From a virus, in the UHGV virus genome UHGV-0138835: a DNA stretch of 48,857 nt. One strand, given 5' to 3'. Made by a program: the position numbers and the translations under genes. Position 1 is the stretch's first letter; every line of letters starts with the position of its first letter. Below, in pieces: positions 1 to 48,302 of this stretch. The notes under the pieces were generated by a model. The model was not told the origin of the DNA, searched no databases, and saw only the letters and a list, made by a program, of their open reading frames with translations.

Positions 1-2375
1 CAGAAGATCTTTATAAAAAAGTTAAGGAAAACGCCGATGATATTGGTCAGCATGAGTCAAGAATTGACTCATTAGAAGTGTACAGCGAAAAAGTTGGCAG
101 CGAACTGGAGCAAGCAAAAGCAAGCCTGCAAAACGCGTCACTTGCTCTTATTAATAACTCACTTGCACAGACAAACACGCGCGTAACTCTTACCGCTCAG
201 TACAAGAAAGGCAGGACAGAGACTAAAGCGGAAATTGACCGTATTGACAACGTTATCGCTGAAGAGAAAAAAGCGACAGCGGAATCACTGGAAACCATCA
301 CAGCAGAAATGAATACGATGGATTCCAACCTTAAAGGTCAAATCTCTAACGTGCAACGAGCAGTAGCTGACGAGGCCAGCGCCCGCGCTGAAGCTATTAA
401 CGGTGTAAACGCCTCAATAAGCAATCTCGACAAGAAAACTGACGCCAGCGTTAACCGCCTTGATCAAGCTATCGCCGACGAAACAAGCGCACGCACCCAG
501 GCAGTCAGCGACGTTAACGCAAATATCTCAGCGCTTGATAAGAAAACTGACGCCAGCGTTAAACGTTTGGATCAAGCGATTGCAGACGAAACAAGCGCCC
601 GCAGCGAAGCCATCAGTGGAGTAAATGCCTCGGTATCAGCGCTCGACAAGAAAACTGACTCAAGTATAAGCCGTCTTGATAAGGCAATAGCAGACGAGAC
701 GAGCGCGAGAACTGAAGCCATTAACGGTGTGAAGGCGTCAATTTCCACACTTGACGGCAAGGTTACAAGTAACGTTAATCGTCTTGATAAGGCGATTGCA
801 GACGAAACGAAGGCACGCACTGACGCTATCAGTAGCGTGAATGCAAGCATTAGCACACTTGAAAGCAACACCGAATCAGAAGTAAGCAGACTTGATCAGG
901 CAATCGCTGACGAGGCCAGCGCTCGCGCACAAGCCATCAGCGGTGTGAATGCTTCGATAGAAAGTCTTGAAAGTAAAACCGATGCGAGCGTTTCCCGTCT
1001 TGATAAAGCAATAGCAGATGAAACGCAGGCAAGAAGCGACGCAATAACAGAGGTTAAAGCTGATTTAACAACACTAGAAAGCAACACAAACGCCAGCGTT
1101 AAGCGTCTTGATCAGGCAATTGCAGACGAAACAAGCGCCAGAGGACAAGCTATCAGCGAAGTTAGCGCAAGTGTCAGCACGCTTGATAATAAAGTGACAA
1201 GCAACGTCACCAGGATGGACAAAGCCATCGCCGACGAAACAAAAGCACGCACAGACGCAATAAGCGGCCTCAGTGCATCGCTTACCAGTACGATTAATTC
1301 AAAAGTATCTGAAGTGTCGACAGCGCTCTCTACGCATGAGGAATCAAGCGCGGAAAAATTTAGCCAGATCTCAGCGTCTTTCGAATCAGTAAACTCAAGT
1401 ATTACAGAATGGTCGCAGGCAATGGCAACGGCTGACGAGGCATTATCAAGCAAAATTGATCAGTTGACAGTAACAGTTAACGGGAACAAAACGGCGATAG
1501 AGACGACATCGAAAGCATTAACCGACTTCAAAGGTAATGTTGATGCGTCGTACTCTATCAAGCTGGCGACCGACAACAACGGAATGAAATACGCAACAGG
1601 TATGTCGCTTGGCCTCACTGGTGACGGCACTAACTTTCAGTCGCAGTGTATTTTCCTTGTTGACCGTTTCGTGTTAATGACCGCAGCAAACGGCACATAT
1701 ACAACGCCTTTCTATGTCACCAATGGCGCAATGTATGTAAGAGAAGCGTTTATTAAGGACGGAACTATCAACTCCGCCAAAATAGCTGATCAAATACAGT
1801 CAGTTAATTACAGCTGGGAAAACGGTACAGGATGGGCGATAAATAAAGCCGGTGACGCAGTATTTAACCAGGTAACCGTAAGGGGTACGGTATACGCTTA
1901 TGCTGGTGTGTTTAACGGTACTGTTTACGCAACTGGCGGTAAATTTACTGGAGCAGTTGAAGCTACAAGTTTTGTTGGTGACGTAGCAAGTATGTCAGTG
2001 ATAAACGAGGATGTATTTCCGTCAATGAGGGGAAATGGCAGCAGGCGCGTTTCGAAAACTTATCTTGATTCAAGTTCATCAAGTTTATCAAAAACAGTTT
2101 ACGTTATGATTCCGTATGATTTGTCATACTATACATATAGTGAATCTTCTCGCATCAATGTAACTATAAATATAAGCGGACACCAAAAAACAATTAATAT
2201 AGAAAGGCCAGCATCAACCCCAGCAATGTCAACTGTCGCGGTGCACTGTGTATCTGGCCTCACATACCCAACAATTACAGTAGAGGTGACGGAAAACTTT
2301 ACCAATACATCTAATGCAGCAATAAGAAAACCAGGTTTAATACTTATAACAAGAAGTTCAGGAACATGGATATAA
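1..2375 (+). CDS. tail fiber / host-specificity protein, 5'-partial (reading frame open to window start, codon phase from nt 3)
   Basis: No in-frame stop upstream of the track ORF start at 78; nine tandem 36-aa repeats of consensus RLDxAIADETSARxxAIxxVNASISxLDxKTxxSVx, then a Gly/Thr/Tyr-rich beta-type C-terminus typical of fibers; position just before a second fiber and attP/int. Confidence 0.7.
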   Translation, partial: EDLYKKVKENADDIGQHESRIDSLEVYSEKVGSELEQAKASLQNASLALINNSLAQTNTRVTLTAQYKKGRTETKAEIDRIDNVIAEEKKATAESLETITAEMNTMDSNLKGQISNVQRAVADEASARAEAINGVNASISNLDKKTDASVNRLDQAIADETSARTQAVSDVNANISALDKKTDASVKRLDQAIADETSARSEAISGVNASVSALDKKTDSSISRLDKAIADETSARTEAINGVKASISTLDGKVTSNVNRLDKAIADETKARTDAISSVNASISTLESNTESEVSRLDQAIADEASARAQAISGVNASIESLESKTDASVSRLDKAIADETQARSDAITEVKADLTTLESNTNASVKRLDQAIADETSARGQAISEVSASVSTLDNKVTSNVTRMDKAIADETKARTDAISGLSASLTSTINSKVSEVSTALSTHEESSAEKFSQISASFESVNSSITEWSQAMATADEALSSKIDQLTVTVNGNKTAIETTSKALTDFKGNVDASYSIKLATDNNGMKYATGMSLGLTGDGTNFQSQCIFLVDRFVLMTAANGTYTTPFYVTNGAMYVREAFIKDGTINSAKIADQIQSVNYSWENGTGWAINKAGDAVFNQVTVRGTVYAYAGVFNGTVYATGGKFTGAVEATSFVGDVASMSVINEDVFPSMRGNGSRRVSKTYLDSSSSSLSKTVYVMIPYDLSYYTYSESSRINVTINISGHQKTINIERPASTPAMSTVAVHCVSGLTYPTITVEVTENFTNTSNAAIRKPGLILITRSSGTWI
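348..1319 (+). repeat. 9 x 108-bp tandem coding repeats (36-aa units) inside the tail-fiber gene
   Basis: Repeat units read directly from the translated ORF (aa 91-414); explains the spurious minus-strand ORFs 572-871, 896-1087, 1112-1453. Confidence 0.85.
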
Positions 2376-8691: not shown

Positions 8692-9122
8692 TATTGCCCC
8701 CAGCGTTTTATAAATTCCTCGTTTAACTTCGTATCGCCAGACCACTGAACACCATGTTCAGCGCCGAACGAGTAGATCAGTTCGATTAATTCGCTAAATT
8801 CTGCTTTACCCATCCGGCTGGTTGACGTTCCCAGCACAACAAATCCTGATTTATCAAGATTAGGGACGACGCCATATTTTTTAAGCCCGGCAGTAAATAC
8901 CGCTTTCCAGTCTTCAGGTGACAGTTTTTTGCCGTACCAATTAACCTGATCGCTAATGTCGGTTAACAGCGCCCATAAAAGGCTATTTTGACTAAGCGAG
9001 CGGGTTTTCTCCTTGATGGTAATAATCAGCGGGCTTTTGCTATCAGGCTGGATTTCACTTATCTGCCTGATAGCGTTTTCTTTTACTGCGTCGTTTACTA
9101 TTTCAAATCTTATTTGCCTCAT
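8691..9122 (-). CDS. ninB: NinB recombination protein (lambda NinB/Orf family)
   Basis: Strong similarity to recalled lambda NinB (…RSLDQN..LWA.L.D.S.QV.W.G…VPNL…GFVV.G.STSRM…FSELIELI..FG…GV.WS). Confidence 0.85.
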   Translation of the reverse strand: MRQIRFEIVNDAVKENAIRQISEIQPDSKSPLIITIKEKTRSLSQNSLLWALLTDISDQVNWYGKKLSPEDWKAVFTAGLKKYGVVPNLDKSGFVVLGTSTSRMGKAEFSELIELIYSFGAEHGVQWSGDTKLNEEFIKRWGQ

Positions 9123-9837
9123 GGTTAGATAACGCCTCGTTTATTCTATTTGATGCAATTTCGAAATATTTTTCATCCTTTTCTATGCCGATAAAACGCC
9201 GATTAGTATTAATGCACGCAACGCCAGTAGTCCCGCTTCCCATGCAGTTATCAAGAACTAAATCACATTCGTTGGTATATGTTTTAATTAAATATTCCAT
9301 AAGCGCTACAGGCTTCTGTGTTGGGTGCAGCTTCACCCTATCTCGCGTAAACTCTAGTACCGTAACTGGATAGCGTTCGCCGCCACTCACCGTAGTTACA
9401 ATACCCGATGGATTGTAGTTAGATGTTTCCCCTCCTTTTTTACATTTATACGGCTTAAATCCCTCCCTCATTTGAGGGTTGTAAGTTGGCGGCTTATCAT
9501 AGAACACCAACACATTTTCATGATCCTTTAGCGGAGCGCGTTTAGCGTTCAGAAACCCTGTTCCAGCCTCTTTGCGCCAAATCCACTCATATCGAAGCAT
9601 ACCAAGATTGGACGCGCCTAAAACCTTGTCAAACGGCGTCTGGGCAGTCAGCACAATCGCCCCACAGCTTATGCGCTTGTATTCATCCCATAGAGACGGC
9701 AAATCAATAACGCTATCCCATTTGTTTCGCGTAGTCCCATACGGCAAATCACACAAAATCAAATTAATACTACAGTCTGGAATAGACTTCATAACCTCCA
9801 GGCAATCGCCTAACAATAATGCAATACCTTTACTCAT
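9103..9837 (-). CDS. DNA methyltransferase, beta-class N6-adenine/N4-cytosine (orphan)
   Basis: N-terminal motif IV DLPY (DPPY-like) and C-terminal motif I LDNCMGSGTTGVAC. Confidence 0.8.
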   Translation of the reverse strand: MSKGIALLLGDCLEVMKSIPDCSINLILCDLPYGTTRNKWDSVIDLPSLWDEYKRISCGAIVLTAQTPFDKVLGASNLGMLRYEWIWRKEAGTGFLNAKRAPLKDHENVLVFYDKPPTYNPQMREGFKPYKCKKGGETSNYNPSGIVTTVSGGERYPVTVLEFTRDRVKLHPTQKPVALMEYLIKTYTNECDLVLDNCMGSGTTGVACINTNRRFIGIEKDEKYFEIASNRINEALSNHEANKI

Positions 9838-15614: not shown

Positions 15615-15869
15615 TCATTCCTCCGGCAATGCAATGTCATAAATGTCGCCGTATTCGTCAGCGCGTTTAATGAATCCTTTGCGGATCAATGAATTTAATG
15701 CGTCAACAGTAGTATGCAGTGGTAGTTCGCACACTTTTGCGATCTCTTCGCGTGAAGCATGTGCGCGGCCTTTGTTGTCTGCCTTTTCTGCAAACGCAAT
15801 TAAGACAAGTTTTTGGATCGGGCTGTTAAGTTTTACGTTCCATACTTCATTCATCATGTGCATACTCAT
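15615..15869 (-). CDS. winged-helix HTH protein, first gene of the leftward early operon (Cro position)
   Basis: 84 aa, divergent from the repressor gene; HTH-like segment SREEIAKVCELPLHTTVDALNSLIRKGFI. Confidence 0.5.
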   Translation of the reverse strand: MSMHMMNEVWNVKLNSPIQKLVLIAFAEKADNKGRAHASREEIAKVCELPLHTTVDALNSLIRKGFIKRADEYGDIYDIALPEE

Positions 15870-16174
15870 CTTGTTTTTCTCCTATGGTTAGAGTGAACGC
15901 GCGGGCGGGCATCCCATTAGCATTAGATAGCAGTGACTGACCGCTCAACAGATCCCGCCGTTGCGTGATATTTGTTTTTCGCTTCGCAGCGACACCGGAT
16001 TTTTAAAGAGCTTAAGGAATTGGCCTTTTGTGCTTTCCTTTATCTTTTTTCTTGCATCATTGCAACTATGGCCTTACCTTGTCTGCAAGTTTACATAATG
16101 GCTTTAACAGGTCAAGGCTTGAAAAACACGTTTTGTGACTTGCATCAAACTTTTTTAGGTTATAGGGTAGCGAC
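15870..16174. promoter_or_regulatory. divergent immunity regulatory region (OR-like) with repeated CTTGCATCA motifs and a candidate leftward boxA/boxB
   Basis: CTTGCATCA at 16051 and 16139; TTTACATAATGG at 16090; minus-strand boxA-like GCTCTTTAAAAA (plus 16000-16011) followed by a hairpin at plus 15979-15992. Confidence 0.45.
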
Positions 16175-16822
16175 ATGAAAACAAAATGGTATGACTTAGC
16201 AAAGCAGCTCATGCGGGCGCAGGGCATGAGTCAGGATTCATTGGCTGATCTCATGGGGATAACCAAAGGTGGCCTTTCGCACTGGCTGAACGGTCGCCGT
16301 GAGCCAAATCTTGAAGATATTGCGCGGATCATGCGGGCGCTTGGGCGTCGGCAGTTTACTGTCACACATGACGGGATGGTTATCGATGATTCTGTTTCTA
16401 ACACGTTACCGGGAGCGCCACCGCGTGATTTAGGCAGTTACCCGGTTGTTGACTGGAAGGATGTAGCAAACAATATGGAAGGCACATGCCGATCAACATT
16501 GCCACACATTACTACTAGCGTTATTTGTTCGGATGATAGTTATTGGCTGGTTGCTAAAGGTGAATCAATGAACGCACCGCAGGGGTTAAGCATCCCGGCG
16601 GGGACTATGATACTCGTTGACCCGCACGCGCCAGCTATTGACGGAAAACTTGTTATAGCACAACTGGAGGAAGGGCAGATACCTACGTTTAAACAGTTGA
16701 TTATTGATGGAGGCCGAAAACTTTTGCGTTCACTGAATCCGTTGTATCCGCCGATCCCTATGAATCCAGAGTCAAAAATCATTGGCGTGGTTGTTGATGC
16801 GAAGATCGTAAACCTGCCATAA
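16175..16822 (+). CDS. CI-type repressor (HTH_XRE + LexA-like S24 peptidase domain), P22 C2-like
   Basis: C-terminal domain closely matches recalled P22 C2 (GSYP…SEDS.WL…G.SM.AP.GLSIP.G..ILVDP……GKLV.A.LE…..TFK.L..D.GRK.L..LNP.YP.I…….KIIGVVVDAK..NLP). Confidence 0.9.
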   Translation: MKTKWYDLAKQLMRAQGMSQDSLADLMGITKGGLSHWLNGRREPNLEDIARIMRALGRRQFTVTHDGMVIDDSVSNTLPGAPPRDLGSYPVVDWKDVANNMEGTCRSTLPHITTSVICSDDSYWLVAKGESMNAPQGLSIPAGTMILVDPHAPAIDGKLVIAQLEEGQIPTFKQLIIDGGRKLLRSLNPLYPPIPMNPESKIIGVVVDAKIVNLP

Positions 16823-16827
16823 ACATT

Positions 16828-16853
16828 AGCCGCCTGGTGGCGGCTTTTCTTTG
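16828..16853 (+). terminator. rho-independent terminator after repressor gene
   Basis: agccgcc-tggt-ggcggct hairpin followed by TTTCTTTGTT. Confidence 0.6.
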
Positions 16854-16946
16854 TTCGAAAAAACACCAAAACGTAAACAGAAAACGCTATTTATTGTTTA
16901 AATATCAATAGTATATAAAATATTTTAAAAAAGTATACAAAATGGA

Positions 16947-16975
16947 TTGACTCGATGTTATACGGGGAGTATATT
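16947..16975 (+). promoter_or_regulatory. candidate sigma70 early promoter (pL-like): -35 TTGACT, 17-bp spacer, -10 TATATT
   Basis: Hexamers and spacer read directly; upstream of the nut site and the N-like gene. Confidence 0.5.
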
Positions 16976-17016
16976 GCGAGTCAAAGGAGGCAGCAAGGCA
17001 GGGAAGGAAGGTTACT

Positions 17017-17054
17017 TGCTCTTTAATAATCTGGTCAGCCGCTGGAAGTGCGGC
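17017..17054 (+). promoter_or_regulatory. candidate nut site: boxA-like TGCTCTTTAA plus boxB hairpin GCCGC-UGGAAGU-GCGGC
   Basis: boxA 17017-17026 resembles the recalled rrn/lambda boxA; 11-nt spacer; boxB stem-loop 17038-17054. Confidence 0.5.
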
Positions 17055-17110
17055 AATTAACGAAGATGATTTTTTATTAAGTTTCATCAAGGATATACGG
17101 AGATCAGATT

Positions 17111-17401
17111 ATGAGCGTTACAATTATGTATGGAAAATGTGATAGCAAAATGAACGCCAGGGAACGCAGAAGGATAAAAAGAGAAAACGAAAGAAAATCA
17201 TCACCTGCAATTAATAAAACAGACAATGTGGATAAAGCTATTCGATTTGCAAACGAGGAAAGGTGCAAACCAAATAGCATTAAAGAACGTCGCAAAGGAT
17301 CAGTAAAATGGTATACGGAAAATGAAAGCGGCAGCTACTACCACGCAACGCAACCACGCCATTTAGGGGAGAAACCCCTGGATAAAGTCCGTTACCATTA
17401 A
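17111..17401 (+). CDS. N-like transcription antitermination protein (P22 gene 24-like)
   Basis: N-terminus MSVTIMYGKCDSKMNARERRRIKRENERK resembles recalled P22 gp24 (MTVITYGKS…AKTRRHERRRKLA) with an arginine-rich motif; first gene after promoter and nut. Confidence 0.6.
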   Translation: MSVTIMYGKCDSKMNARERRRIKRENERKSSPAINKTDNVDKAIRFANEERCKPNSIKERRKGSVKWYTENESGSYYHATQPRHLGEKPLDKVRYH

Positions 17402-24111: not shown

Positions 24112-24370
24112 AACAACCCGCCAGCCGCCGCGCGGCTTTGCCAGTGCTGTATTCCTTGCTAACGACCGGGCCATCACGCGTACTACGCTCAACCGCGTTT
24201 TACCGGACTAAAGTTTACAAAATGGCGTCATTGCGTGATGTGGATCACATAATGGCGATTTTCACCTTGTTCTGACGTATCCATTTTGTATACTTCAAAC
24301 AAGAAAAATGCTCTTTAAAAATCCGGTAGCGCTGAAATGCGTAGAAATCACCTGAAAAGGAGAGAGCATT

Positions 24371-30624: not shown

Positions 30625-30653
30625 TTGTAGGGCGTAAACAAACAGATTAAAAT
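30625..30653 (+). promoter_or_regulatory. candidate late promoter (pR'-like): -35 TTGTAG, 17-bp spacer, -10 TAAAAT
   Basis: Hexamers read directly; ~30 nt upstream of a terminator hairpin and the lysis cassette. Confidence 0.4.
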
Positions 30654-30681
30654 ATTTCCTAACAATGCGAAATTGTAATTA

Positions 30682-30703
30682 CCCGGCCCAGCGCCGGGTT
30701 TTT
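30682..30703 (+). terminator. rho-independent terminator hairpin just upstream of holin (tR'-like)
   Basis: cccggc-ccagc-gccggg followed by TTTTT; SD GGAGG and holin ATG follow. Confidence 0.5.
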
Positions 30704-32789: not shown

Positions 32790-32858
32790 ATGGTTACTTT
32801 CCTGTTAGGTTTATTTATCGGAATGGCTGCCGCTGTAATATTACTGGTCGGTGAATAA
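32790..32858 (+). CDS. micro-ORF 1 (22 aa) hydrophobic single-helix peptide MVTFLLGLFIGMAAAVILLVGE
   Basis: SD GGGGGTGA 5 nt upstream; read by hand; below ORF-track cutoff. Confidence 0.45.
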   Translation: MVTFLLGLFIGMAAAVILLVGE

Positions 32859-32862
32859 TGTT

Positions 32863-32979
32863 ATGGACGATTATATCATCGCCGGATTAATCGGTATTTC
32901 TGTATTTCTTGTTGGTTCTATCATAGTTGCATTGATAAACGCATATATCAAGCATTGGGTGGGGTTGAAAGATGATTGA
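32863..32979 (+). CDS. micro-ORF 2 (38 aa) MDDYIIAGLIGISVFLVGSIIVALINAYIKHWVGLKDD
   Basis: SD GGTGA 9 nt upstream. Confidence 0.45.
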   Translation: MDDYIIAGLIGISVFLVGSIIVALINAYIKHWVGLKDD

Positions 32980-33046
32980 TCCGCTCATTATCCTTTCTGC
33001 CTGCGTCGCTGTATGGCTGGCGATCATGATATTCATTGAAAGCTGA
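32972..33046 (+). CDS. micro-ORF 3 (24 aa) MIDPLIILSACVAVWLAIMIFIES
   Basis: ATGATTGA overlap with micro-ORF 2; SD GGGTGGGG upstream. Confidence 0.4.
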   Translation: MIDPLIILSACVAVWLAIMIFIES

Positions 33047-33057
33047 AGGTATTCACC

Positions 33058-33132
33058 ATGAATATTTACGATCTAATATGGTGGTCAGTGGTCGCCGTCA
33101 TTATCTATTTCTGGTGGAAGAATGTTGTATAG
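33058..33132 (+). CDS. micro-ORF 4 (24 aa) MNIYDLIWWSVVAVIIYFWWKNVV
   Basis: SD GAAGGT 8 nt upstream. Confidence 0.45.
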   Translation: MNIYDLIWWSVVAVIIYFWWKNVV

Positions 33133-33139
33133 GTGAAGC

Positions 33140-33220
33140 ATGAACGCATACGAAATGCTATTGCTGGTGGCTGTAGTTGTAGTCATTGCTGTTGATTTTT
33201 ATAGAGGGTTTAAAAGATGA
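33140..33220 (+). CDS. micro-ORF 5 (26 aa) MNAYEMLLLVAVVVVIAVDFYRGFKR
   Basis: SD AGGTGA 4 nt upstream. Confidence 0.45.
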   Translation: MNAYEMLLLVAVVVVIAVDFYRGFKR

Positions 33221-33288
33221 GAGAAGCAGACTTCTTTTGCATAATTATAGTGATCGTCATCGTTGCGGTGCTTTTAAGCGTTAACTGA
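33217..33288 (+). CDS. micro-ORF 6 (23 aa) MREADFFCIIIVIVIVAVLLSVN
   Basis: ATGA overlap with micro-ORF 5; SD GAGGG upstream. Confidence 0.4.
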   Translation: MREADFFCIIIVIVIVAVLLSVN

Positions 33289-33305
33289 ATCGCAGGGGGT
33301 TGAAA

Positions 33306-33374
33306 ATGAAATGGCTTGATTTCTTTTTCCTGGTTGTTGCGATTGTTTTTACCATGACCGCGCTGACTCAATAG
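33306..33374 (+). CDS. micro-ORF 7 (22 aa) MKWLDFFFLVVAIVFTMTALTQ
   Basis: SD AGGGGG 7 nt upstream. Confidence 0.45.
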   Translation: MKWLDFFFLVVAIVFTMTALTQ

Positions 33375-33382
33375 GTGAATAT

Positions 33383-33457
33383 ATGGAAACTATCGAAGCC
33401 GTATTATTCGTATGTATCGCGGCGGTTGTTATTGTGGGGTTTATTATCAATGTCTGA
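33383..33457 (+). CDS. micro-ORF 8 (24 aa) METIEAVLFVCIAAVVIVGFIINV
   Basis: SD AGGTGA 5 nt upstream. Confidence 0.45.
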   Translation: METIEAVLFVCIAAVVIVGFIINV

Positions 33458-33518
33458 CGGTGATTTCTTAATCATGGCTATATGCACGTTGTTAGTCGTT
33501 ATCGTTTTCTTCGCATAA
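33450..33518 (+). CDS. micro-ORF 9 (22 aa) MSDGDFLIMAICTLLVVIVFFA
   Basis: ATGTCTGA overlap with micro-ORF 8 (coupled). Confidence 0.35.
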   Translation: MSDGDFLIMAICTLLVVIVFFA

Positions 33519-33527
33519 AGGTAAACA

Positions 33528-33611
33528 ATGAAAGAATTATTCGACTGGTTGGAAGTATTAACATACTGCGCAAGTTTTGTTGCTTGCGTATACATCATCA
33601 ATAAATATTGA
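33528..33611 (+). CDS. micro-ORF 10 (27 aa) MKELFDWLEVLTYCASFVACVYIINKY
   Basis: SD AAGG 7 nt upstream; stop 10 nt before the terminase small subunit start. Confidence 0.45.
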   Translation: MKELFDWLEVLTYCASFVACVYIINKY

Positions 33612-33621
33612 GAGGTGAAAT

Positions 33622-34107: not shown

Positions 34108-35588
34108 TTATGTTGACAATCAAAGAACGAGTTATTCAGTCCAAATGTGAAAACGATGGCCTGTTTTTCAATCGCTACTTCTATAAGCAAGCGAACGGAA
34201 CGAAGATGTTAATCTCAGGCCATCATTTAGCTATCCGTGATGCACTGCAACGCGTTATTAAAGGTGAGATAACCCGACTCATCATTAACATCCCTCCAGG
34301 GTACGGCAAAACCATGATCGCGACTATCAACATGATGGCGCGGTCCCTCGCAATAAATCCCCGCACAAGATTCCTTCACGTTTCCTATTCCAACAACCTG
34401 GCGCTACTCAATTCCTCGACTGTAAGAAACATGATCTGTACGCCTGAATATCAGGCAATGTGGCCCATGAAGATCCGCAACGATGCAAACTCCAAATCGA
34501 TGTGGTGGACCGAATACGGTGGCGGCGTGTATGCGACGTCATCACTTGGTCAGGTGACTGGGTTCCGTGCGGGGTACATGGAATCAGGATTTAACGGCGC
34601 GTTAATCATCGACGACCCATTAAAACCCGCTGACGCTTACTCCGACGTGGTGAGAAAGCAGGTAAACACCAACTATAATGATACGCTTGCTTCACGTCTG
34701 GCAGTGCAAACGACGCCTGTTATCGTCATCATGCAGCGCATCCACTACGATGATTTGTCCGGCTACCTGCTACGCGGTGGGAGTGGTGAGAAGTGGTATC
34801 ACCTTAACCTGCCAGTGAAGATTGACAACAGCATCGACTATTGGGATCTGTACCCGGAAAACGAGTTCGCCATCCCTATCGCTCACAACCTGCCAGACGG
34901 CTGGCTATGGCCTAAAAAGCACAATGACAACCACGAAGCAGGACTGAAGGCGCACAGAAGGTCATTCGAGGCCCAGTACATGCAGCGCCCGCGTAAATTC
35001 GACGAAGAGGGCGCATTGTGGACTGAAGCGATGATAACCGCCGCGCACCGGATGCAGATAACGCAGGAGAAAATACGCACTGTAATAGCTATTGACCCTG
35101 CGACAACATCATCTGATGAGTCGGACGAAACGGGGATCGTGGCGTGTTCCGCTTATGGTGGCGGTAAGAATGCTCAGTATTCTGTTGATGGCGACTACTC
35201 AGGCCGCATGTCTCCTAACGACTGGGCGCAAGCCTCAATGAACGCCTACAACATCCATGAAGCTGACGCGATAGTTATCGAAACAAACCAGGGCGGCGAA
35301 ATGGCAGAGGCCACGCTACGCAATGCAGGATTTAAAGGCCGCATTGTTAAGGTGCACGCAAGTAAAGGTAAATTCGCCCGCGCCGAACCAATATCAGCAC
35401 TATATGCACAGGGCAGAGTAGCCCACACTGGCAGCCTGTACACGCTGGAAAATCAAATGATGGAATATGTGCCAGCTACCGCCAAAAAATCCCCTGACCG
35501 TATGGATGCGATGGTGTGGGGTATCACTGAATTAAGCCAACCACAGGCTATGGGCCTCATGTTACCGAAGCGCCTGCGCGGATTTTAA
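34104..35588 (+). CDS. terminase large subunit
   Basis: Walker A-like PPGYGKT, ATPase then nuclease-type C-terminal half, 494 aa. Confidence 0.85.
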   Translation: MIMLTIKERVIQSKCENDGLFFNRYFYKQANGTKMLISGHHLAIRDALQRVIKGEITRLIINIPPGYGKTMIATINMMARSLAINPRTRFLHVSYSNNLALLNSSTVRNMICTPEYQAMWPMKIRNDANSKSMWWTEYGGGVYATSSLGQVTGFRAGYMESGFNGALIIDDPLKPADAYSDVVRKQVNTNYNDTLASRLAVQTTPVIVIMQRIHYDDLSGYLLRGGSGEKWYHLNLPVKIDNSIDYWDLYPENEFAIPIAHNLPDGWLWPKKHNDNHEAGLKAHRRSFEAQYMQRPRKFDEEGALWTEAMITAAHRMQITQEKIRTVIAIDPATTSSDESDETGIVACSAYGGGKNAQYSVDGDYSGRMSPNDWAQASMNAYNIHEADAIVIETNQGGEMAEATLRNAGFKGRIVKVHASKGKFARAEPISALYAQGRVAHTGSLYTLENQMMEYVPATAKKSPDRMDAMVWGITELSQPQAMGLMLPKRLRGF

Positions 35589-35615
35589 AATCTGACTCAC
35601 AATCCCCCACAAGTT

Positions 35616-35650
35616 TTTCTATTTTTCGCGTAGCAACGCGTAAACATGTA
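35616..35650 (+). promoter_or_regulatory. conserved element with tandem CGCGTA (10-bp spacing), copy 1, in portal 5' leader
   Basis: tttctatttttcgcgtagcaacgcgtaaacatgta; a near-identical copy lies at 48240-48275 upstream of the M gene. Confidence 0.4.
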
Positions 35651-35666
35651 TTCAGGAGTAAACATT

Positions 35667-37037
35667 ATGCCATCAAATTTAGATTTGGCGGTTAACGCTG
35701 CCTTGTCACAACGTCAGGCGGCCTATGCCCGCTATGCCGCAGCCAACCCATTCACTATGGGGATAGATGCCAAACGTGATGCCGCGTGGAGTGAATACGG
35801 ATTCAAAGAAGAGATCACGTATGACGACCTGTATAAGCTGTACAGACGCGGTGGTATTGCTCACGGTGCTATTGAGAAAATCATCACGACTTGCTGGCGC
35901 ACCAGGCCAACGATGATCGAGGGAACAGAAGACGAGAAAGCGGAAACGGAAACACCCTGGGAAAGAGACATCAAGAAACAGTTTGATAACAGATTCTGGC
36001 GCATCATTGCTGAATGTGACCGCCGCCGCCTCATTGGTCGTTATGCTGGCCTGTTGATTCATGTCAGAGATAGCCAGCCGTGGGATCAGCCAGTGACAAA
36101 AGGCGTAGGCATTGCCAAATTTACCCCGGTATGGGCTGGCGCTCTTACGCCGAAGGAGTTCGAAGAAGACCCGAACAGTGAAAACTATGGCCTGCCTACA
36201 TGGTGGGAATACAAGGAGCGCATAAACAGCAAGACTATTGCCAGAAAGATCCACCCTGACCGCATATTTATCTTTGGTGACTATTCTGATGATGCCATCG
36301 CCTTCCTTGAACCGTCCTATAACGCCTTTGTGTCACTTGAGAAAGTGGAAGGCGGTAGCGGTGAATCATTCCTGAAAAACGCTGCCCGCCAGTTAGCTAT
36401 CTCGTTCGATAAAGAGATTGATTTCCGCTCCCTTGCTGCAACATACGGATGCGACGTCACAGAGCTACGCGAAAGATTCAATGAGGCTGCTGCTGAAATG
36501 AATAAGGGTAATGATGTGATGATGGCATTACAAGGGGCGACAGTAAGCCCGCTGGTGACTGCCGTATCTGACCCGTCGGCAACCTATGACGTCAACCTGC
36601 AAACCGCCGCCGCTGGTATTGATATTCCTACCCGCATCCTGGTTGGGAACCAGCAGGGGGAACGCGCATCAACCGAAGACCTGCGTTACTTCAACAGTCG
36701 CTGTATGACCCGCAGGGAGGAAATTGGCGGTGAGCTTGAGGATCTATTCCGCAAGATGGCAGATCTCCGCCTTATCAGTATGCCAATTGACGTATCAGTG
36801 ATATGGGACGACCTGAACGCCATGACAAAAGCCGAACTACTGGAAGCGGCACACAAAATGGCGCAAATCAATCAGGCTTGTTTGGCTACTGGTGAAGAAA
36901 TATTTAGCGGTGACGAGATCCGCGAGGCTGCCGGATACGATGGCCCTGCCAGTGTAGTGGAAATGGAAGAGGAAAACGATGATGAAGGTGAAGAAGATAA
37001 TCAGGCGAATACCTCCAGCCGCGATAATGCCATCTAA
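35667..37037 (+). CDS. portal protein (SPP1 gp6-like by size and context)
   Basis: ~456 aa gene directly after the large terminase and before a MuF-like gene; acidic C-terminus; start at ATG 35667 with CAGGAG SD. Confidence 0.65.
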   Translation: MPSNLDLAVNAALSQRQAAYARYAAANPFTMGIDAKRDAAWSEYGFKEEITYDDLYKLYRRGGIAHGAIEKIITTCWRTRPTMIEGTEDEKAETETPWERDIKKQFDNRFWRIIAECDRRRLIGRYAGLLIHVRDSQPWDQPVTKGVGIAKFTPVWAGALTPKEFEEDPNSENYGLPTWWEYKERINSKTIARKIHPDRIFIFGDYSDDAIAFLEPSYNAFVSLEKVEGGSGESFLKNAARQLAISFDKEIDFRSLAATYGCDVTELRERFNEAAAEMNKGNDVMMALQGATVSPLVTAVSDPSATYDVNLQTAAAGIDIPTRILVGNQQGERASTEDLRYFNSRCMTRREEIGGELEDLFRKMADLRLISMPIDVSVIWDDLNAMTKAELLEAAHKMAQINQACLATGEEIFSGDEIREAAGYDGPASVVEMEEENDDEGEEDNQANTSSRDNAI

Positions 37038-44339: not shown

Positions 44340-44406
44340 ATACAAAATGTACTCGTTGAAGTGAAGCCATTTTGTATAAAATAGAGACATAGATCACATT
44401 TTGTAT
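44340..44406. promoter_or_regulatory. inverted/direct repeats of ATACAAAATG / CATTTTGTAT in the divergent region upstream of the tape-measure gene
   Basis: ATACAAAATG 44340-44349; CATTTTGTAT at 44368-44377 and 44397-44406. Confidence 0.45.
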
Positions 44407-44417
44407 GAGGTTAAATC

Positions 44418-47400
44418 ATGTCAACAAATTTGGGTACAATTTACTACGAGGTTGACGCGAAAACGGGTCAGCTTCTGACTGTTCAACGCGATGTAGATCG
44501 CGCAACTGGCAAAATGGAAAAGGATTTGGAGCGCGTGGATAGTGCCGCTACTCAGGCAAGTAAGTCACTGTCAAAACTATCCTCGATTGCCAGCGCCCTG
44601 GGTGCTGCAATGGCAGCGAAAAAAATCATTGAGTATGCAAACGCCTGGCAGGAGGTGAATAACAGGCTAATCAATAGCGTTCGTGCTGGTGAATCGCTGG
44701 CAGACGTTAATCAGCGTGTATTTCAGATCGCGCAAAATTCACGAAGCGACCTTGATGCTACGGCAGATCTTTACGGTAAATTAGAGCGCTCGACGCGCGA
44801 CGCTGGTTTATCGACGAAAGCACTTGGTGATATGGTTGAAACCATTAACAAAACATTCCGCATTTCTGGCGCTTCTGCCGCTGAAGCAGAAGGCGGGATC
44901 CGTCAGTTGGGTCAATCCCTCGCCAAAGGTGTTTTGAATGGCGATGAATTTAACTCCGTTACAGAAAACGCCACCAGGCTGTCAGAGGGTTTAGCTAAAT
45001 CACTGGGCGTATCGTCGGCAGAAATGCGCAAGATGGCAGCAGAAGGGAAAATCACCCGTGAAGCTATCATTAAAGCCCTTAAGGAAATGAAAGCGGAAGT
45101 TGATGCTGAGTTTTCTAAACTCACCCCAACTATGCAGGAGGCTTTCACTGTTGCAGGCAACAACGCAGCTAAATTTTTCGGCAGCAATTCGTCAATTATG
45201 GGCGGGATTGGTGCTTTTAATTCGGCAGTTGTAACCCTGTCAGAAAACCTTAACGAAATAGCTACCGCATTTATTGGCCTTGCCACTGTGATGGGTGGCA
45301 GAGTGGTAAATAAATTCGTAGCTGCAACAGCAGAGGCATTAACTAACGCTCAGGCAACCAGGGCACAAACGGCAGCGGCACGGCAGGCCGCTCAGAGTGA
45401 ATTGGCGCTAGCTAACGCTCAGGTGGTATCAGCACGGCAATCAGTAGCGGCGGCGGCGGCAAGGCTGAGAGAGGCGCAGGCTTATGCTGCGGCAAATGCC
45501 GGAACAAAATTCGAAGTTCAGACGCTGAAAGAGTTGGCTGTAGCCAAAGCACAGAACACAGCGGCATCAAACGCCCTTACTGCGGCAGAGCAGCGCCTTG
45601 CTGCGGCCCACACTGCGGCGGCGGCTAATGCAGGGCTACTAAAAACAGCATTTAGCGCTACTCTGGGCGCGATCGGCGGTATCCCTGGCGCGTTAATGCT
45701 TGCTGTTTACGGGTTGACAGCATATGTAGATCACGTAGATCAAACAGCAGAGGCAAACCGCAACCTTGCTGATTCAGTGGATGTTAGTACCGAATCACTG
45801 GAGCGAATGAGCAAGGCGGCTAAACTGGCTGGCGCAGATAAACTACAAATATCAATGGGTCAGTTAGAGGAAGACATTGACAGTCTTAACAAACAGATTG
45901 ACCAGGACACGCAGGCGCTGGAACTGAATAAGCGGGCACTGGAGAACGCCGAGGAGGGATCACGCGCTTACGCCAACCTATCGAAAGCTAATCAGGAAAT
46001 CACAGCCCGCCTGACCAGGGAAGAAGCACAGCGTGAAGATATTCTCGACCGCCTTAATCAAATGCAGCGCAAATATATTTTGCTTATGCAGGATACAGAT
46101 CCGCTAATGAAGACCCTTGCCACTTCATTGGGGTTGGTGGCGGATGCATACGGAAGAATCACCACAGAAGCAGAACGCGCAGCAGCAGCAACGCAACACG
46201 CTTCAGCAGCGCTTAACGCAGATCAACAAGAACTAATAGATCTGGCAAACCGCCGCCTGGAACTGGCAAAACTCGACTCCAAAACAGCCAGCAGGGAAAA
46301 GGCGATTGATGGGTTTAAGCGTGAGGCTGAGAAAGCAAACCTGACCGGGGAAGCGTATGAAAAATACATGGCTACAATGACCAAAGCATACGACACCGAG
46401 CAGAAACGCGCCGAAGCTGAAAGAAAGGCCAATCAAGGGAAGAAAACTGGCGAAAGCGAGGAAAAAAAACGTCTAAAAGAGGCTGAACGCCTACGCAAAG
46501 AGCTTGAGAAACGGGGACAGAATGTTGCAGACAAATACAACGTCGAAGCAGCCGCGCAACGTAAACTAAAAGAGGATCAGAAAGCACTAAACGCAGCATT
46601 AGAAAGCGGCAAAATAAGCGCGGAACAATATAATAAGGCATGGAAGGAATTAATTGGAACCGAGGAGCAACGCAAGCGCCAGGCTGGCTGGGATAATCTG
46701 GTAAACAATGAGCTGCAACTACGCGGGCAGCTAGACCCAATTCAGCAGGCGATGAACGAATGGGCGGTTCGCAAACAAATGCTCACAGATTTAGGCGCTA
46801 CAGAGCAATATATGAGGGAGCAAGAAAAAGCGCACGAGAGGGAAATGCTATCACTTCAGTGGGAGAGGTATAAGGCGCAGTCATTGACCAACCAACTGTT
46901 AGGTGATGCCGTTGATGCAATGAGCGGATCTGCAACTAACGCGCTTGTCGGCCTGATTAACGGTACTCAGAGCTGGCAACAGGCGCTTGCTAACATTGGC
47001 AATACGATTCTGTCATCCGTGATCGGTACGCTTGTTCAGATGGGCGCTGAATGGGTCAAGCAGCAATTAATAGGGGAGGCTGCCAGTGCCGCCGCAACAG
47101 CAAAGGCAATGGGCGAGGCGGTGGCGTTAAGTTCTGCATGGTCCACCCCGGCCTACCTAGCAAGCGTGGCAACAATGGGCGGCGCAGCGACGGCGGGATC
47201 AACAGCGATGGCCACCGGACTTGCTGGAGCAAAAGCGCTTGCTCTGGGTGGCGCTCGTTATAACGGCGGTGCGGTTAATGGTGGTAGCCTGTATCGCGTA
47301 GGGGAACACGGGATACCGGAGCTATTCCAGACGAGCAACGGGCGTCAGTATATGATTCCTGGTGAAAATGGCAGGGTCATTCCTGGCCGCGATCTTTTCA

Positions 47401-47567
47401 GCGGTGGCGGCATCAATATGCCTGTAAACATTAACGTTCAGACCACAAACGGGTTTAGCGATGAGGACAGTCGCAGGCTTGAACAAACGATGGAACGCGT
47501 AGCAATGAAAATGATGGCAAGGGAATCGCAACGACCGGGAGGAATGTTGCAACCGCGCCGCAAATAA
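44418..47567 (+). CDS. tail tape measure protein
   Basis: 1049 aa, Ala/Gln/Glu-rich helical, position before the M gene. Confidence 0.85.
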   Translation: MSTNLGTIYYEVDAKTGQLLTVQRDVDRATGKMEKDLERVDSAATQASKSLSKLSSIASALGAAMAAKKIIEYANAWQEVNNRLINSVRAGESLADVNQRVFQIAQNSRSDLDATADLYGKLERSTRDAGLSTKALGDMVETINKTFRISGASAAEAEGGIRQLGQSLAKGVLNGDEFNSVTENATRLSEGLAKSLGVSSAEMRKMAAEGKITREAIIKALKEMKAEVDAEFSKLTPTMQEAFTVAGNNAAKFFGSNSSIMGGIGAFNSAVVTLSENLNEIATAFIGLATVMGGRVVNKFVAATAEALTNAQATRAQTAAARQAAQSELALANAQVVSARQSVAAAAARLREAQAYAAANAGTKFEVQTLKELAVAKAQNTAASNALTAAEQRLAAAHTAAAANAGLLKTAFSATLGAIGGIPGALMLAVYGLTAYVDHVDQTAEANRNLADSVDVSTESLERMSKAAKLAGADKLQISMGQLEEDIDSLNKQIDQDTQALELNKRALENAEEGSRAYANLSKANQEITARLTREEAQREDILDRLNQMQRKYILLMQDTDPLMKTLATSLGLVADAYGRITTEAERAAAATQHASAALNADQQELIDLANRRLELAKLDSKTASREKAIDGFKREAEKANLTGEAYEKYMATMTKAYDTEQKRAEAERKANQGKKTGESEEKKRLKEAERLRKELEKRGQNVADKYNVEAAAQRKLKEDQKALNAALESGKISAEQYNKAWKELIGTEEQRKRQAGWDNLVNNELQLRGQLDPIQQAMNEWAVRKQMLTDLGATEQYMREQEKAHEREMLSLQWERYKAQSLTNQLLGDAVDAMSGSATNALVGLINGTQSWQQALANIGNTILSSVIGTLVQMGAEWVKQQLIGEAASAAATAKAMGEAVALSSAWSTPAYLASVATMGGAATAGSTAMATGLAGAKALALGGARYNGGAVNGGSLYRVGEHGIPELFQTSNGRQYMIPGENGRVIPGRDLFSGGGINMPVNINVQTTNGFSDEDSRRLEQTMERVAMKMMARESQRPGGMLQPRRK

Positions 47568-47704: not shown

Positions 47705-47959
47705 TCACTTATGCGCCCCTTTTACCCCGCAGTGTCTGTTATATTCCAGATGGTCGATAATTAACCACGCCTTTAAATCTTCGCTGAATAACCGCCAATC
47801 GGGGTTGATGTCAAATTTATAACCGTAGCCATCGCGTAATTTTTTGGGGTTGGCCTCTTTTTTCAGGAAAGCATTTAATAAAGCCTTGCCCTTTTTGATG
47901 ATCCGGTCCTGTGCGTTTTTTTGTGCTTTCAGATTTTTACCAATCGCTACCAATTTCAT
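47705..47959 (-). CDS. hypothetical basic protein (84 aa), moron; second gene of a minus-strand pair
   Basis: ORF antisense to the tail operon; SD GGGGTGAG upstream. Confidence 0.45.
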   Translation of the reverse strand: MKLVAIGKNLKAQKNAQDRIIKKGKALLNAFLKKEANPKKLRDGYGYKFDINPDWRLFSEDLKAWLIIDHLEYNRHCGVKGAHK

Positions 47960-47977
47960 AACTCACCCCACAATCCA

Positions 47978-48133
47978 TTAGTTGACCACTTTCAGGAAGA
48001 AATCACGGTATTCATCTTCTTTTGCATTCATCATGAATTGACCGTATTTGAATGCGTCATCAAAGCCTTTAACTATCGCCACTTCCACCTGTTCGAATGC
48101 GTTGTTCAGCATTACCACTACATAACGCTTCAT
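47978..48133 (-). CDS. small protein (51 aa) MKRYVVVMLNNAFEQVEVAIVKGFDDAFKYGQFMMNAKEDEYRDFFLKVVN, first gene of the minus-strand pair
   Basis: Strong SD AAGGAGG 6 nt upstream of ATG on minus strand; below ORF-track cutoff. Confidence 0.4.
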   Translation of the reverse strand: MKRYVVVMLNNAFEQVEVAIVKGFDDAFKYGQFMMNAKEDEYRDFFLKVVN

Positions 48134-48239
48134 GTTGGCCTCCTTTGTCGGTACTGCTTTTTCTTCTTGCTTACTATATACATCTTGTTACGTCCTGTGT
48201 GAAGCCATTTCGTAAACTGGGTATAATTCTTGTGATGAA

Positions 48240-48275
48240 TTTCTCATTTTTCGCGTAGAAGCGCGTAAAGATGTA
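48240..48275 (+). promoter_or_regulatory. conserved element with tandem CGCGTA, copy 2, in the M-gene 5' leader (with TATAAT at 48222-48227 upstream)
   Basis: tttctcatttttcgcgtagaagcgcgtaaagatgta; about 32 of 35 positions shared with 35616-35650. Confidence 0.4.
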
Positions 48276-48302
48276 CACAATATGTAACTTATAGGGGGAA
48301 TC

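What the first reader, a model, noticed from the sequence alone, without database searches (positions are those of the whole stretch)
35616..35650. Conserved 35-bp element with tandem CGCGTA half-sites in the 5' leaders of the portal and M genes
tttctatttttcgcgtagcaacgcgtaaacatgta (35616-35650, ending 17 nt before the portal ATG) and tttctcatttttcgcgtagaagcgcgtaaagatgta (48240-48275, ending 28 nt before the M ATG) share about 32 of 35 positions. Each has two CGCGTA hexamers exactly 10 bp apart (one helical turn) after a T-run. I found no other tandem copy in the window. The M copy is additionally preceded by GTGAAGCCATTT, which is shared with the tape-measure upstream region, and by a perfect TATAAT. 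This suggests a dedicated late-gene control element acting as a DNA or RNA site.
Basis: seen in the sequence. Interest (0 to 1): 0.55.

Follow-up and report, generated by a model that had tools for sequence, protein, structure and literature searches.

The report
Conserved hairpin in two late-gene leaders
A roughly 30-base imperfect palindrome sits just upstream of the portal gene and of the tail-tip gene M in every sampled phage of the mEp021 (mEpimmI) group, and it looks more like a hairpin in the late messenger RNA than a pair of DNA half-sites, although what binds it and what it does remain unknown.

Summary
The window is a temperate coliphage of the mEpimmI group, 96% identical to mEp021. 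It carries exactly two copies of the element, at 35616-35651 and 48240-48275, both on the sense strand; none are expected by chance.

Both copies occur at the same two positions in every relative sampled without using the motif: 47 portal loci, 30 M loci and 5 E. coli prophages. The seven mEpimmI GenBank phages have two places each. Phages with about 60% identical portals or 70% identical M proteins lack the element.

The two CGCGTA hexamers are the arms of a hairpin. It has a lower stem of U-run against AAArAUG, one bulged U, an upper stem CGCGU/RCGCG and a loop AGNN. Natural variants argue mildly for sense-strand RNA:
- the only upper-stem changes are C-to-U, which give G.U pairs;
- one variant loses a loop base and so breaks the 10-bp phasing;
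- the M copy folds much better as plus-strand RNA.

There are no compensatory double changes, and the CGCG arms are almost invariant. A DNA-binding site therefore remains a serious rival.

It is not a promoter, a terminator, a boxA/boxB nut site or any Rfam family. My best guess is a cis-acting RNA operator or processing signal. The element is new but of an ordinary kind, and of moderate interest.

The parts
35616..35651 (+). Portal-leader copy of the conserved block. It begins 28 nt after the terL stop codon (35586-35588) and ends 3 nt before the portal Shine-Dalgarno sequence.
   Evidence: 61.8 bits. Nearly invariant in 47 of 47 portal-anchored relatives.
35620..35648 (+). Predicted RNA hairpin, portal copy. 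Lower stem 35620-35626 pairs with 35642-35648 and contains one U.C mismatch. U35641 is bulged. Upper stem CGCGU 35627-35631 pairs with ACGCG 35636-35640. The loop is AGCA, 35632-35635.
   Evidence: Fold (-6.2 kcal/mol). Pair counts.
35654..35669 (+). Portal ribosome-binding site: AGGAG at 35654-35658 and ATG at 35667-35669. The hairpin ends 5 nt before the Shine-Dalgarno sequence, which leaves no room for a -10 element and a transcription start.
48240..48275 (+). M-leader copy of the conserved block.
   Evidence: 67.8 bits. Present in 30 of 30 mEpimmI M-anchored relatives and in 5 of 5 E. coli prophages fetched.
48245..48273 (+). Predicted RNA hairpin, M copy. Lower stem CAUUUUU 48245-48251 pairs with AAAGAUG 48267-48273. 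U48266 is bulged. Upper stem CGCGU 48252-48256 pairs with GCGCG 48261-48265. The loop is AGAA, 48257-48260.
   Evidence: Fold (-11.8 kcal/mol, z = -2.96). The plus strand is more stable than the minus strand in 21 of 22 M variants.
48199..48227 (+). Promoter-like region ahead of the M copy: GTGAAGCCATTTCGTAAACT followed by a consensus TATAAT at 48222-48227. This would place the hairpin at about +11 to +40 of the transcript. It lies back to back with a leftward promoter-like site for the toxin-antitoxin genes.
   Evidence: Highly conserved among relatives. Promoter activity is inferred, not shown.
48231..48246 (+). CRP-like site TGTGAtgaattTCTCA between the -10 element and the hairpin. Its right half overlaps the first bases of the lower stem.
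   Evidence: Read from the sequence. Analogous sites lie after the -10 elements of the tape-measure and L 'restart' promoters. Consensus match only.
48276..48302 (+). Rest of the M leader: a conserved block (ACAAWATGTAACTTAT in relatives) and the Shine-Dalgarno sequence GGGGG. It stays with the hairpin when an HNH gene is inserted ahead of M in locus L084.
47705..48133 (-). Divergent two-gene cassette next to the M copy: a 51-aa protein and a ParE-like toxin. It interrupts the tail operon between the tape-measure gene and M.
   Evidence: (PF24732, E = 1e-11).

Best explanation
The element is a cis-acting stem-loop in the sense-strand late mRNA. It has a 12-bp stem made of an A-U-rich lower part and a CGCG upper part, one bulged U on the 3' side, and an AGNN loop. 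It occurs once in the terL-portal junction of the long late transcript and once near the 5' end of the M transcription unit. I infer that a sequence-specific factor recognises it, either a phage or host RNA-binding protein or a ribonuclease. I further infer that it sets the processing, stability or translation of the mRNA for the portal and for M; I note that these two proteins start head and tail-tip assembly and may be needed in small, controlled amounts. What is shown: the element's existence, its copy number, its orientation, its conservation, its capacity to fold, and the G.U-type variation. What is inferred: that it is transcribed, that something binds it, and what effect it has.
For: 1. 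There are two copies per genome, both in the sense orientation inside leaders.
2. The complementarity covers the whole conserved core, T-run and A-run included, not only the CGCGTA hexamers.
3. Across 34 distinct sequences, 92.4% of cells form pairs, against 22-75% when the partner columns are slid. Seven of the 12 pairs vary on one side only while staying paired through G.U.
4. The only upper-stem changes seen are C-to-U, and each gives a G.U pair. They occur in the 5' arm in L168/L172 and L344 and in the 3' arm in L174. No G-to-A change was seen.
5. The M copy is far more stable as plus-strand RNA than as minus-strand RNA, with means of -9.3 and -5.5 kcal/mol; the plus strand wins in 21 of 22 variants.
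6. Loop positions 3-4 vary freely, and L169/L170 lack one loop base, which changes the hexamer spacing to 9 bp.
7. In L084 an HNH gene sits between the hairpin and M. The element therefore goes with the leader and promoter rather than with M's ribosome-binding site.
8. Each copy is the best-conserved non-coding block of its region.
Against: No pair shows a compensatory double change, and the shuffle control is uninformative. The CGCG arms are invariant in 40 of 41 metagenome copies found with a stem-free pattern. That fits recognition of the sequence as much as recognition of a structure. The portal copy is weak (-6.2 kcal/mol, z = -0.95) and folds equally well on the minus strand. Some prophage variants break lower-stem pairs: L133, L344, L347 and the G-to-U variant in L088/L090. 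All relatives are close (84% portal identity or more), so high conservation is partly expected. The distance to the start codon differs between the copies (19 and 30 nt), which argues against a simple translational operator. No candidate binding protein was identified, and no transcript data exist.
Confidence: 0.45

Rival explanations
1. It is a double-stranded DNA site for a sequence-specific protein. The protein could bind two CGCGTA(R) direct repeats on one face of the helix, or the imperfect palindrome TTTTTCGCG...CGCGTAAA. It would act as an operator or roadblock just downstream of the M promoter and in front of the portal gene, for example to keep structural genes silent in the lysogen.
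For: The CGCGTA hexamers and their 10-bp spacing are almost invariant, and the stem never covaries. The M copy lies at about +11 to +40 of a consensus -10 element, next to other protein-site-like motifs (CRP-like and GCCATTTTGTA). Conserved bases 3' of the hairpin (TRTAT-CA) are not explained by the fold.
Against: L169/L170 have 9-bp spacing. The two arms are asymmetric by one base. The variants are G.U-type on the sense strand only. The portal copy has no promoter to regulate. The motif is absent from the immunity region, so the CI-like repressor is not the binder. The only host consensus I recalled, the CpxR box GTAAA-N5-GTAAA, fits one half-site only, and the invariant CGC and G25 are unexplained.
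Confidence: 0.25
2. It is an RNA hairpin that works in transcription elongation. It would be a boxB-like loading site for the N-like antiterminator Gp17, or for another factor, that makes RNA polymerase terminator-resistant in the head and tail operons.
For: The phage group uses an N-like protein with three nut sites, one of them far downstream behind its own promoter (PMC11893012). The nut boxB hairpins also have short CGC-type stems closed by a U, with purine-rich loops. The M unit starts at its own promoter and ends at a terminator, beyond which the tail genes continue in mEp021.
Against: The boxA sequence GCTCTTTAA occurs exactly three times, at the three known nut sites, and not near either hairpin even with one mismatch. 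The loop is AGNN, not GNRA-like. The U-run is paired rather than free. The paper that searched these genomes for nut sites reports only three (PMC11893012). A lambda-type Q protein (PF03589) already provides late antitermination.
Confidence: 0.1
3. It has no dedicated trans-acting partner. It is a duplicated piece of leader kept as a generic structural element (an mRNA end protector or a spacer) or as a short homology patch at module boundaries, and the two copies are homogenised by gene conversion.
For: The portal copy lies about 30 nt from a mosaic breakpoint: two terL C-terminal alleles join at the stop codon. The M copy borders an inserted reverse cassette. Loop types are occasionally exchanged between the two positions, with GAAG in some portal copies and GCAA in one M copy. 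Other leader pieces are also shared in pairs, for example between the tape-measure and L leaders.
Against: Conservation is higher than in the flanking non-coding DNA at both sites in all lineages. The first two loop bases and the bulged U are invariant or nearly so, which a generic hairpin does not need. The breakpoint is not in the element itself.
Confidence: 0.12
4. It is a late promoter: an activator site plus a weak -10 element (TRTAT) that drives portal and M.
For: A conserved TRTAT follows the repeats, and the palindrome would be centred near -22 to -25, which recalls the P1 late promoters (recalled from memory, not tested).
Against: In the portal copy the putative -10 element ends 2-3 nt before the Shine-Dalgarno sequence, so a transcript would start within or after it. 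The base at the -7 position is not conserved. The M copy already lies downstream of a consensus TATAAT. The promoter scan found nothing at either site.
Confidence: 0.03

Closest known systems
Phage RNA operator hairpins bound by a protein, such as the MS2/PP7 coat-protein operators and the Mu Com site on mom mRNA (from general knowledge)
   Same: A short hairpin with a single bulged base and a small loop carrying conserved bases, lying just upstream of a ribosome-binding site.
   Different: No binding protein is known here. The distance to the start codon is not fixed. The element is in a temperate dsDNA siphophage and occurs at two unrelated genes. There is no sequence similarity to those operators.
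Lambda-type nut sites (boxA + boxB), including the three mEp021 nut sites (PMC11893012)
   Same: A small GC-stem hairpin with a purine-rich loop in a leader, downstream of a phage promoter in the M copy. The same phage group is known to use extra nut sites.
   Different: There is no boxA. The loop is AGNN, not GNRA-like. The stem is longer and has a bulge. The portal copy is not behind a promoter.
Mycobacteriophage stoperators: repressor-binding sites scattered in intergenic regions and oriented with transcription (from general knowledge)
   Same: A short conserved site in gene leaders, in one orientation relative to transcription. It would explain a site downstream of a promoter and one inside an operon.
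   Different: There are only two copies. The motif is absent from the immunity-region operators. The variation pattern favours RNA.
Intergenic processing or stabiliser hairpins of polycistronic phage mRNAs, such as the T7 RNase III sites and 5' stabiliser stem-loops (from general knowledge)
   Same: A conserved hairpin between genes of a long late transcript, flanked by AU-rich single strands; GU|AU follows the stem.
   Different: It is much shorter than RNase III substrates. No cleavage data exist. Generic stabilisers are not expected to have sequence-invariant loops.
AGNN tetraloop hairpins recognised by yeast Rnt1p (from general knowledge)
   Same: The loop consensus AGNN, with the first two bases fixed.
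   Different: That is a eukaryotic enzyme and no bacterial counterpart is known to me. I treat this as a formal resemblance only.

Membership tests
Lambda-type nut site | A boxA sequence (GCTCTTTAA in this phage) a few bases upstream of the hairpin | tested here: not met
   Exact boxA occurs only at 16003(-), 17018(+) and 24310(+). None lies near 35620 or 48245, even with 1 mismatch.
Lambda-type nut site | A boxB hairpin with a GNRA-like loop beginning with G | tested here: not met
   The loop is AGCA or AGAA, and the first base is A in all but one variant. The phage's own boxB loops are GCGA, (U)GAAA(U) and (U)GGAAG(U).
Lambda-type nut site | Binding by the N-like protein and Nus factors | not testable with these tools
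   This needs an EMSA or an antitermination reporter.
Intrinsic terminator | A GC-rich hairpin followed by a U-run | tested here: not met
   The hairpin is followed by UAAAGAUG on the plus strand and by AAAAAUGAG on the minus strand. The terminator scan does not list it.
Sigma-70 or activator-dependent promoter | A -10 element with room for a transcription start and a leader before the ribosome-binding site | tested here: not met
   In the portal copy the conserved block ends at 35651 and the Shine-Dalgarno sequence starts at 35654. The scan gives no promoter-like hit at either copy.
Direct-repeat DNA site (response-regulator or CII-like) | Two equal half-sites at a fixed spacing of about 10 bp in all members | tested here: inconclusive
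   Spacing is 10 bp in nearly all copies, but 9 bp in L169/L170. Single-base variants are CGCGTG, TGCGTA (first half-site) and TGCGTA (second half-site).
Immunity-repressor operator / stoperator | The same motif as the operators in the immunity region | tested here: not met
   There is no copy in 15800-17200 or anywhere else in the window.
Q-binding element of the late promoter | A motif shared with the PR' promoter of the same phage and conserved there | tested here: not met
   GCGTAAAC occurs in the PR' spacer of the window (30632) but is not conserved in mEp010 or MagusPhagus.
Any curated RNA family (Rfam 15) | A match to a covariance model | tested here: not met
   No match at E up to 10 around either copy, and none at gathering score in the whole window.
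Structured cis-regulatory RNA (generic) | Compensatory base-pair changes | tested here: inconclusive
   There are no double changes. Seven pairs vary on one side only and stay paired, and 92.4% of cells are paired. The diversity of the group is too low to decide.

The most novel reading that the evidence does not exclude
The hairpin is the operator of a so far unrecognised post-transcriptional circuit specific to the mEpimmI phage family. One phage-encoded RNA-binding protein would read the AGNN loop and the bulged U, and would co-regulate the proteins that start head assembly (portal) and tail-tip assembly (M), coupling the two assembly lines. The N-like Gp17 acting at boxA-less sites is one possible binder.
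Probability: 0.2. Interest if true: 0.65.

Novelty: new member of a known kind. Interest (0 to 1): 0.4.

Why it matters
The mEpimmI phages were proposed as a new family of common gut coliphages only in 2025 (PMC11893012). Their late-gene control beyond a Q-like antiterminator is undescribed in that paper. This element is a precise, testable handle: 30 bases, two copies and strict conservation. It could show how a temperate siphophage whose tail operon is broken up by reverse-oriented cassettes keeps head and tail genes expressed in the right amounts. If a specific binder exists, the hairpin-protein pair could also serve as a small orthogonal regulatory part. If it is only a stabilising hairpin or a DNA operator, it is a routine annotation feature.

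Tried and rejected
- Promoter reading: rejected for lack of room before the portal Shine-Dalgarno sequence.
- Terminator reading on either strand: rejected because there is no U-run.
- Q-binding element: the GCGTAAAC in the PR' spacer is not conserved.
- Nut site: no boxA.
- Rfam: no match.
- More distant homologues that could give covariation:
  - The scan of species-representative genomes found no portal relative.
  - Portals about 60% identical (Enterobacter, Citrobacter, Klebsiella and E. coli prophages) have a Cys-rich micro-ORF or an unrelated spacer instead of the hairpin.
  - Lambda-like M genes about 70% identical lack it.
  - A metagenome scan with the stem left free returned 41 true copies, 40 with CGCG/CGCG and 1 with TGCG; the rest were AT-rich chance hits.
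- Non-mEpimmI hits to the exact tandem pattern in viral contigs (for example L016, L033/L050/L083, L076): these lie in coding sequence or unrelated contexts and are taken as chance.
- Third, degenerate copy, for example ahead of the tape-measure gene or L: none in the window or in 41.5 kb of mEp021.
- Antisense promoters reading leftward through the element: the spacing is inconsistent between the two copies, and the motif is degenerate in the window's own M copy.
- Pseudoknot between the loop and the upstream UUCU: no support in the portal copy.
- CpxR box: only one half-site fits.
- The 2023 paper on Gp17 and the nut sites is not in the library, so I located the nut sites from boxA myself.

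Full report
**What the window is.** A 1.5-kb stretch around the finding is 96.4% identical to Enterobacteria phage mEp021. It is 88-92% identical to five other mEp phages and to phage MagusPhagus. These are the 'mEpimmI' Nus-dependent, non-lambdoid temperate coliphages described in PMC11893012. The mEp021 annotation and my own profile searches give this gene order:
- lambda-type Q (PF03589);
- lysis genes;
- Sf6-like small terminase, then large terminase (ending at 35588);
- portal (ATG at 35667), then head genes;
- major tail protein;
- a reverse-strand gene;
- tape-measure gene (44418-47567);
- a reverse-strand two-gene cassette, a 51-aa protein plus a ParE-like toxin (47705-48133);
- M (ATG at 48303).

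Both 35/36-nt sequences are at the stated coordinates and differ by three substitutions and one indel. The exact tandem CGCGTA-N4-CGCGTA occurs only there. A 29-nt consensus allowing three mismatches gives 2 sites against 0.00 expected. A covariance model run without filters over both strands finds only these two, at 67.8 and 61.8 bits; the next hit scores 12 bits. The TATAAT and the GTGAAGCCATTT shared with the tape-measure upstream region are also there.

**Distribution.**
- The exact tandem pattern found 95 stretches in the viral-contig collection. Almost all lie in about 50-kb E. coli phage contigs, usually two per contig, and fall into a 'portal' context and an 'M' context.
- That sample was selected on the motif, so I re-sampled through the proteins. 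All 47 loci with the upstream region found with the portal protein (84-98% identity) carry the element before the portal gene.
- All 30 loci whose M protein is 83% or more identical carry it before M.
- Five divergent prophages from the 35 of 5,426 complete E. coli genomes that have this region also carry it.
- Among 50,697 GenBank phage records, only the seven mEpimmI phages match, with two places each.
- A model search of 34 loci, including 41.5 kb of mEp021, found no third copy.
- The next relatives lack it. M genes about 70% identical, in lambda-like contigs, follow the tape-measure gene directly or a terminator. Portals about 60% identical, in Enterobacter, Citrobacter, Klebsiella and E. 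coli prophages, are preceded by a Cys-rich micro-ORF or an unrelated spacer.
- The element is therefore an invention of this phage group, present twice, and older than the group's diversification. Each position keeps its own diagnostic differences, and loop types are occasionally exchanged between the positions.

**Anatomy.** CGCG is self-complementary, so the two 'half-sites' are also the arms of an inverted repeat. The complementarity extends outward into the flanks. In the M copy the pairs are CAUUUUU with AAAGAUG, one bulged U, CGCGU with GCGCG, and the loop AGAA (48245-48273; -11.8 kcal/mol, z = -2.96). In the portal copy the equivalent hairpin is 35620-35648, with one U.C mismatch and the loop AGCA (-6.2 kcal/mol, z = -0.95). 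This one structure accounts for the T-run, both hexamers and the AAA(G/C)ATG, which is almost the whole conserved block.

**Conservation.** In the alignment of 34 distinct sequences, these bases are invariant or nearly so: the T-run, CGCGT, the first two loop bases (A, G), CGCG, the bulged U and AAA. Loop positions 3-4 vary freely. Both copies are the best-conserved non-coding blocks of their regions. The 20 nt between TATAAT and the M hairpin, and the 25 nt before the portal hairpin, vary much more.

**RNA or DNA?** Evidence pointing to sense-strand RNA:
- 92.4% of cells are paired for the proposed structure, against 22-75% for slid partners. Seven of the 12 pairs vary on one side only while remaining paired through G.U.
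- The only changes ever seen in the eight CGCG stem positions are C-to-U: in the 5' arm in L168/L172 and L344, and in the 3' arm in L174. Each gives a G.U pair in the plus-strand RNA and would be an A.C mismatch in the minus strand. No G-to-A change was seen.
- L169/L170 lack one loop base, which changes the hexamer spacing from 10 to 9 bp.
- The M copy is much more stable as plus-strand than as minus-strand RNA. The means are -9.3 and -5.5 kcal/mol, and the plus strand is better in 21 of 22 variants.
- In L084 an HNH endonuclease gene has been inserted between the leader and M, and the hairpin has stayed with the leader.

Evidence against, or neutral:
- There is not one compensatory double change, and the shuffle control cannot discriminate.
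- A metagenome scan that left the stem bases free found 40 of 41 true copies with CGCG/CGCG.
- The portal copy folds equally well on either strand.
- A few variants break lower-stem pairs: L133, L344, L347 and L088/L090.
- A conserved TRTAT-CA 3' of the stem is unexplained.
- C-to-T is also the commonest mutation at CpG.

I conclude that an RNA hairpin is the better reading, but it is not proven.

**What it is not.**
- It is not a promoter. The portal copy ends 2-3 nt before the Shine-Dalgarno sequence, and the scan lists nothing at either copy.
- It is not a terminator on either strand, because there is no U-run.
- It is not a nut site. The boxA sequence GCTCTTTAA occurs exactly three times, at the three published nut sites, and never near the hairpins. 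The loops of the phage's boxB hairpins begin with G, whereas here the first loop base is A.
- It is not the Q-binding part of the late promoter. The short similarity to the PR' spacer is not conserved among relatives.
- It is not an immunity operator, since there is no copy in the immunity region.
- It matches no Rfam family.
- The 2025 paper on the group does not mention it. Two literature searches found nothing comparable.

**Context of the M copy.** The tail operon of these phages is interrupted by reverse-oriented cassettes. After each cassette the next tail gene (tape-measure, M, and L in mEp021) is preceded by a promoter-like sequence. These sequences share a motif, (G/T)CCATTTTG-TA(A/T)A(C/A)T. 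The motif also occurs at the early promoter-like sites of the immunity region and ahead of nutR2: 12 sites against 4.6 expected. Each 'restart' site also has a CRP-like TGTGA-N6-TCACA site just after its -10 element. Only the M unit has the hairpin, which would lie at about +11 to +40 of its transcript. The portal copy has no promoter; the TAAAAT that overlaps the terL stop codon is TAAAAA in several relatives. It therefore sits inside the long Q-dependent late transcript.

**Most likely mechanism.** I commit, at about 0.45, to a cis-acting sense-RNA stem-loop read by a sequence-specific factor that sets processing, stability or translation of the downstream late mRNA. The invariant loop AG and the bulged U are typical protein-recognition features. 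The stem is flanked by AU-rich single strands, and GU|AU follows it, which would suit RNase E. The unequal distance to the two start codons, and the L084 insertion, argue against a classical translational operator that occludes the ribosome-binding site. They favour an effect on the transcript, through stability, processing or elongation. The rivals are:
- a duplex-DNA operator or roadblock (0.25);
- a boxA-less loading site for the N-like antiterminator or another elongation factor (0.10);
- a duplicated leader piece with only a generic or recombinational role (0.12);
- a promoter (0.03).

**Verdict.** This is a real, strictly conserved, family-specific cis element that I did not find described. 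It is better read as a hairpin than as tandem half-sites. Its kind, a leader hairpin or operator, is ordinary; its partner and function are unknown. Interest is moderate.

Noticed in passing
window 2811(-), 7638(-), 12295(-), 16090(-), 16934(-), 24214(-), 24280(+), 44339(-), 44366(+), 48204(+): A motif (G/T)CCATTTTG-TA(A/T)A(C/A)T recurs at regulatory regions: 12 hits against 4.6 expected. At 16090(-) and 24280(+) it forms the spacer and -10 element of good promoter-like sites (TTGACC-N16-TAAACT and TTGTTC-N16-TATACT). It also precedes the tape-measure gene and M, and it often comes in inverted pairs. It may be a phage-specific promoter class or the operator of the CI/Cro-like proteins, which would put the tail 'restart' promoters under immunity control.
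   Followed up: partly
window 48231-48246, 44381-44396, 24232-24247; L001 about 35726-35741 (mEp021, upstream of L): CRP-like sites (TGTGA-N6-TCACA, 8-9 of 10 matches) lie immediately downstream of the -10 elements of the three promoter-like sites that restart the tail operon (M, tape-measure, L). Another is centred about 61.5 bp upstream of the predicted start of the promoter ahead of nutR2. The tape-measure and L leaders share GACRTAGATCACAWWTTG.
   Followed up: partly
window 47705-48133 (-): A reverse-strand cassette between the tape-measure gene and M encodes a 51-aa protein and an 84-aa ParE-like toxin (PF24732, E = 1e-11). This is a probable toxin-antitoxin moron with its own leftward promoter-like site, back to back with the M promoter.
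   Followed up: partly
window 32790-33620: The 830-bp 'gap' before the small terminase gene contains a run of about eight very short ORFs, each with a Shine-Dalgarno-like sequence and each encoding a hydrophobic peptide of roughly 20-40 residues.
   Followed up: no
L084 (reverse complement) about 8724-9198: In one relative a 157-aa HNH endonuclease gene is inserted between the M-leader hairpin and M. The promoter, the hairpin and the following conserved block are left intact.
   Followed up: yes
L225-L228, between terL and portal (e.g. L225 5869-6001): Prophages of Enterobacter, Citrobacter, Klebsiella and E. coli with portals about 60% identical carry a Cys-rich micro-ORF of about 39 aa (MPKKCKCSSCERRRKGWPGYQPC...) where the mEpimmI phages have the hairpin. 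NCBI names many of these portals (PF06381) 'anti-CBASS protein Acb1 family protein', which looks like an annotation transfer worth checking.
   Followed up: no
window 35560-35595 and loci L097-L144: The large terminase has two unrelated C-terminal endings among relatives (...LPKRLRGF* and ...NKNNSQLAT*). They join common sequence exactly at the stop codon (TAAAATCTG), a mosaic breakpoint about 30 nt upstream of the portal hairpin.
   Followed up: partly
window 30626-30700: The probable late promoter PR' (TTGTAG-N17-TAAAAT) is followed after about 25 nt by a strong terminator (30681-30699) just before the holin gene. The stretch from -20 to the terminator is nearly invariant in four phages and is likely the Q loading region.
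   Followed up: partly
window 360-1270 within ORF 78-2375: Seven or more tandem copies of a 108-nt (36-aa) repeat lie in the C-terminal part of what is probably the tail fibre/J-like protein.
   Followed up: no
window 35646 and mEp021 record 28919: The GenBank annotation of mEp021 starts the portal at the ATG that lies inside the 3' arm of the hairpin (MYSGVNIMPS...). That ATG has no Shine-Dalgarno sequence. The ATG at 35667, 8 nt after AGGAG, is the more likely start.
   Followed up: partly
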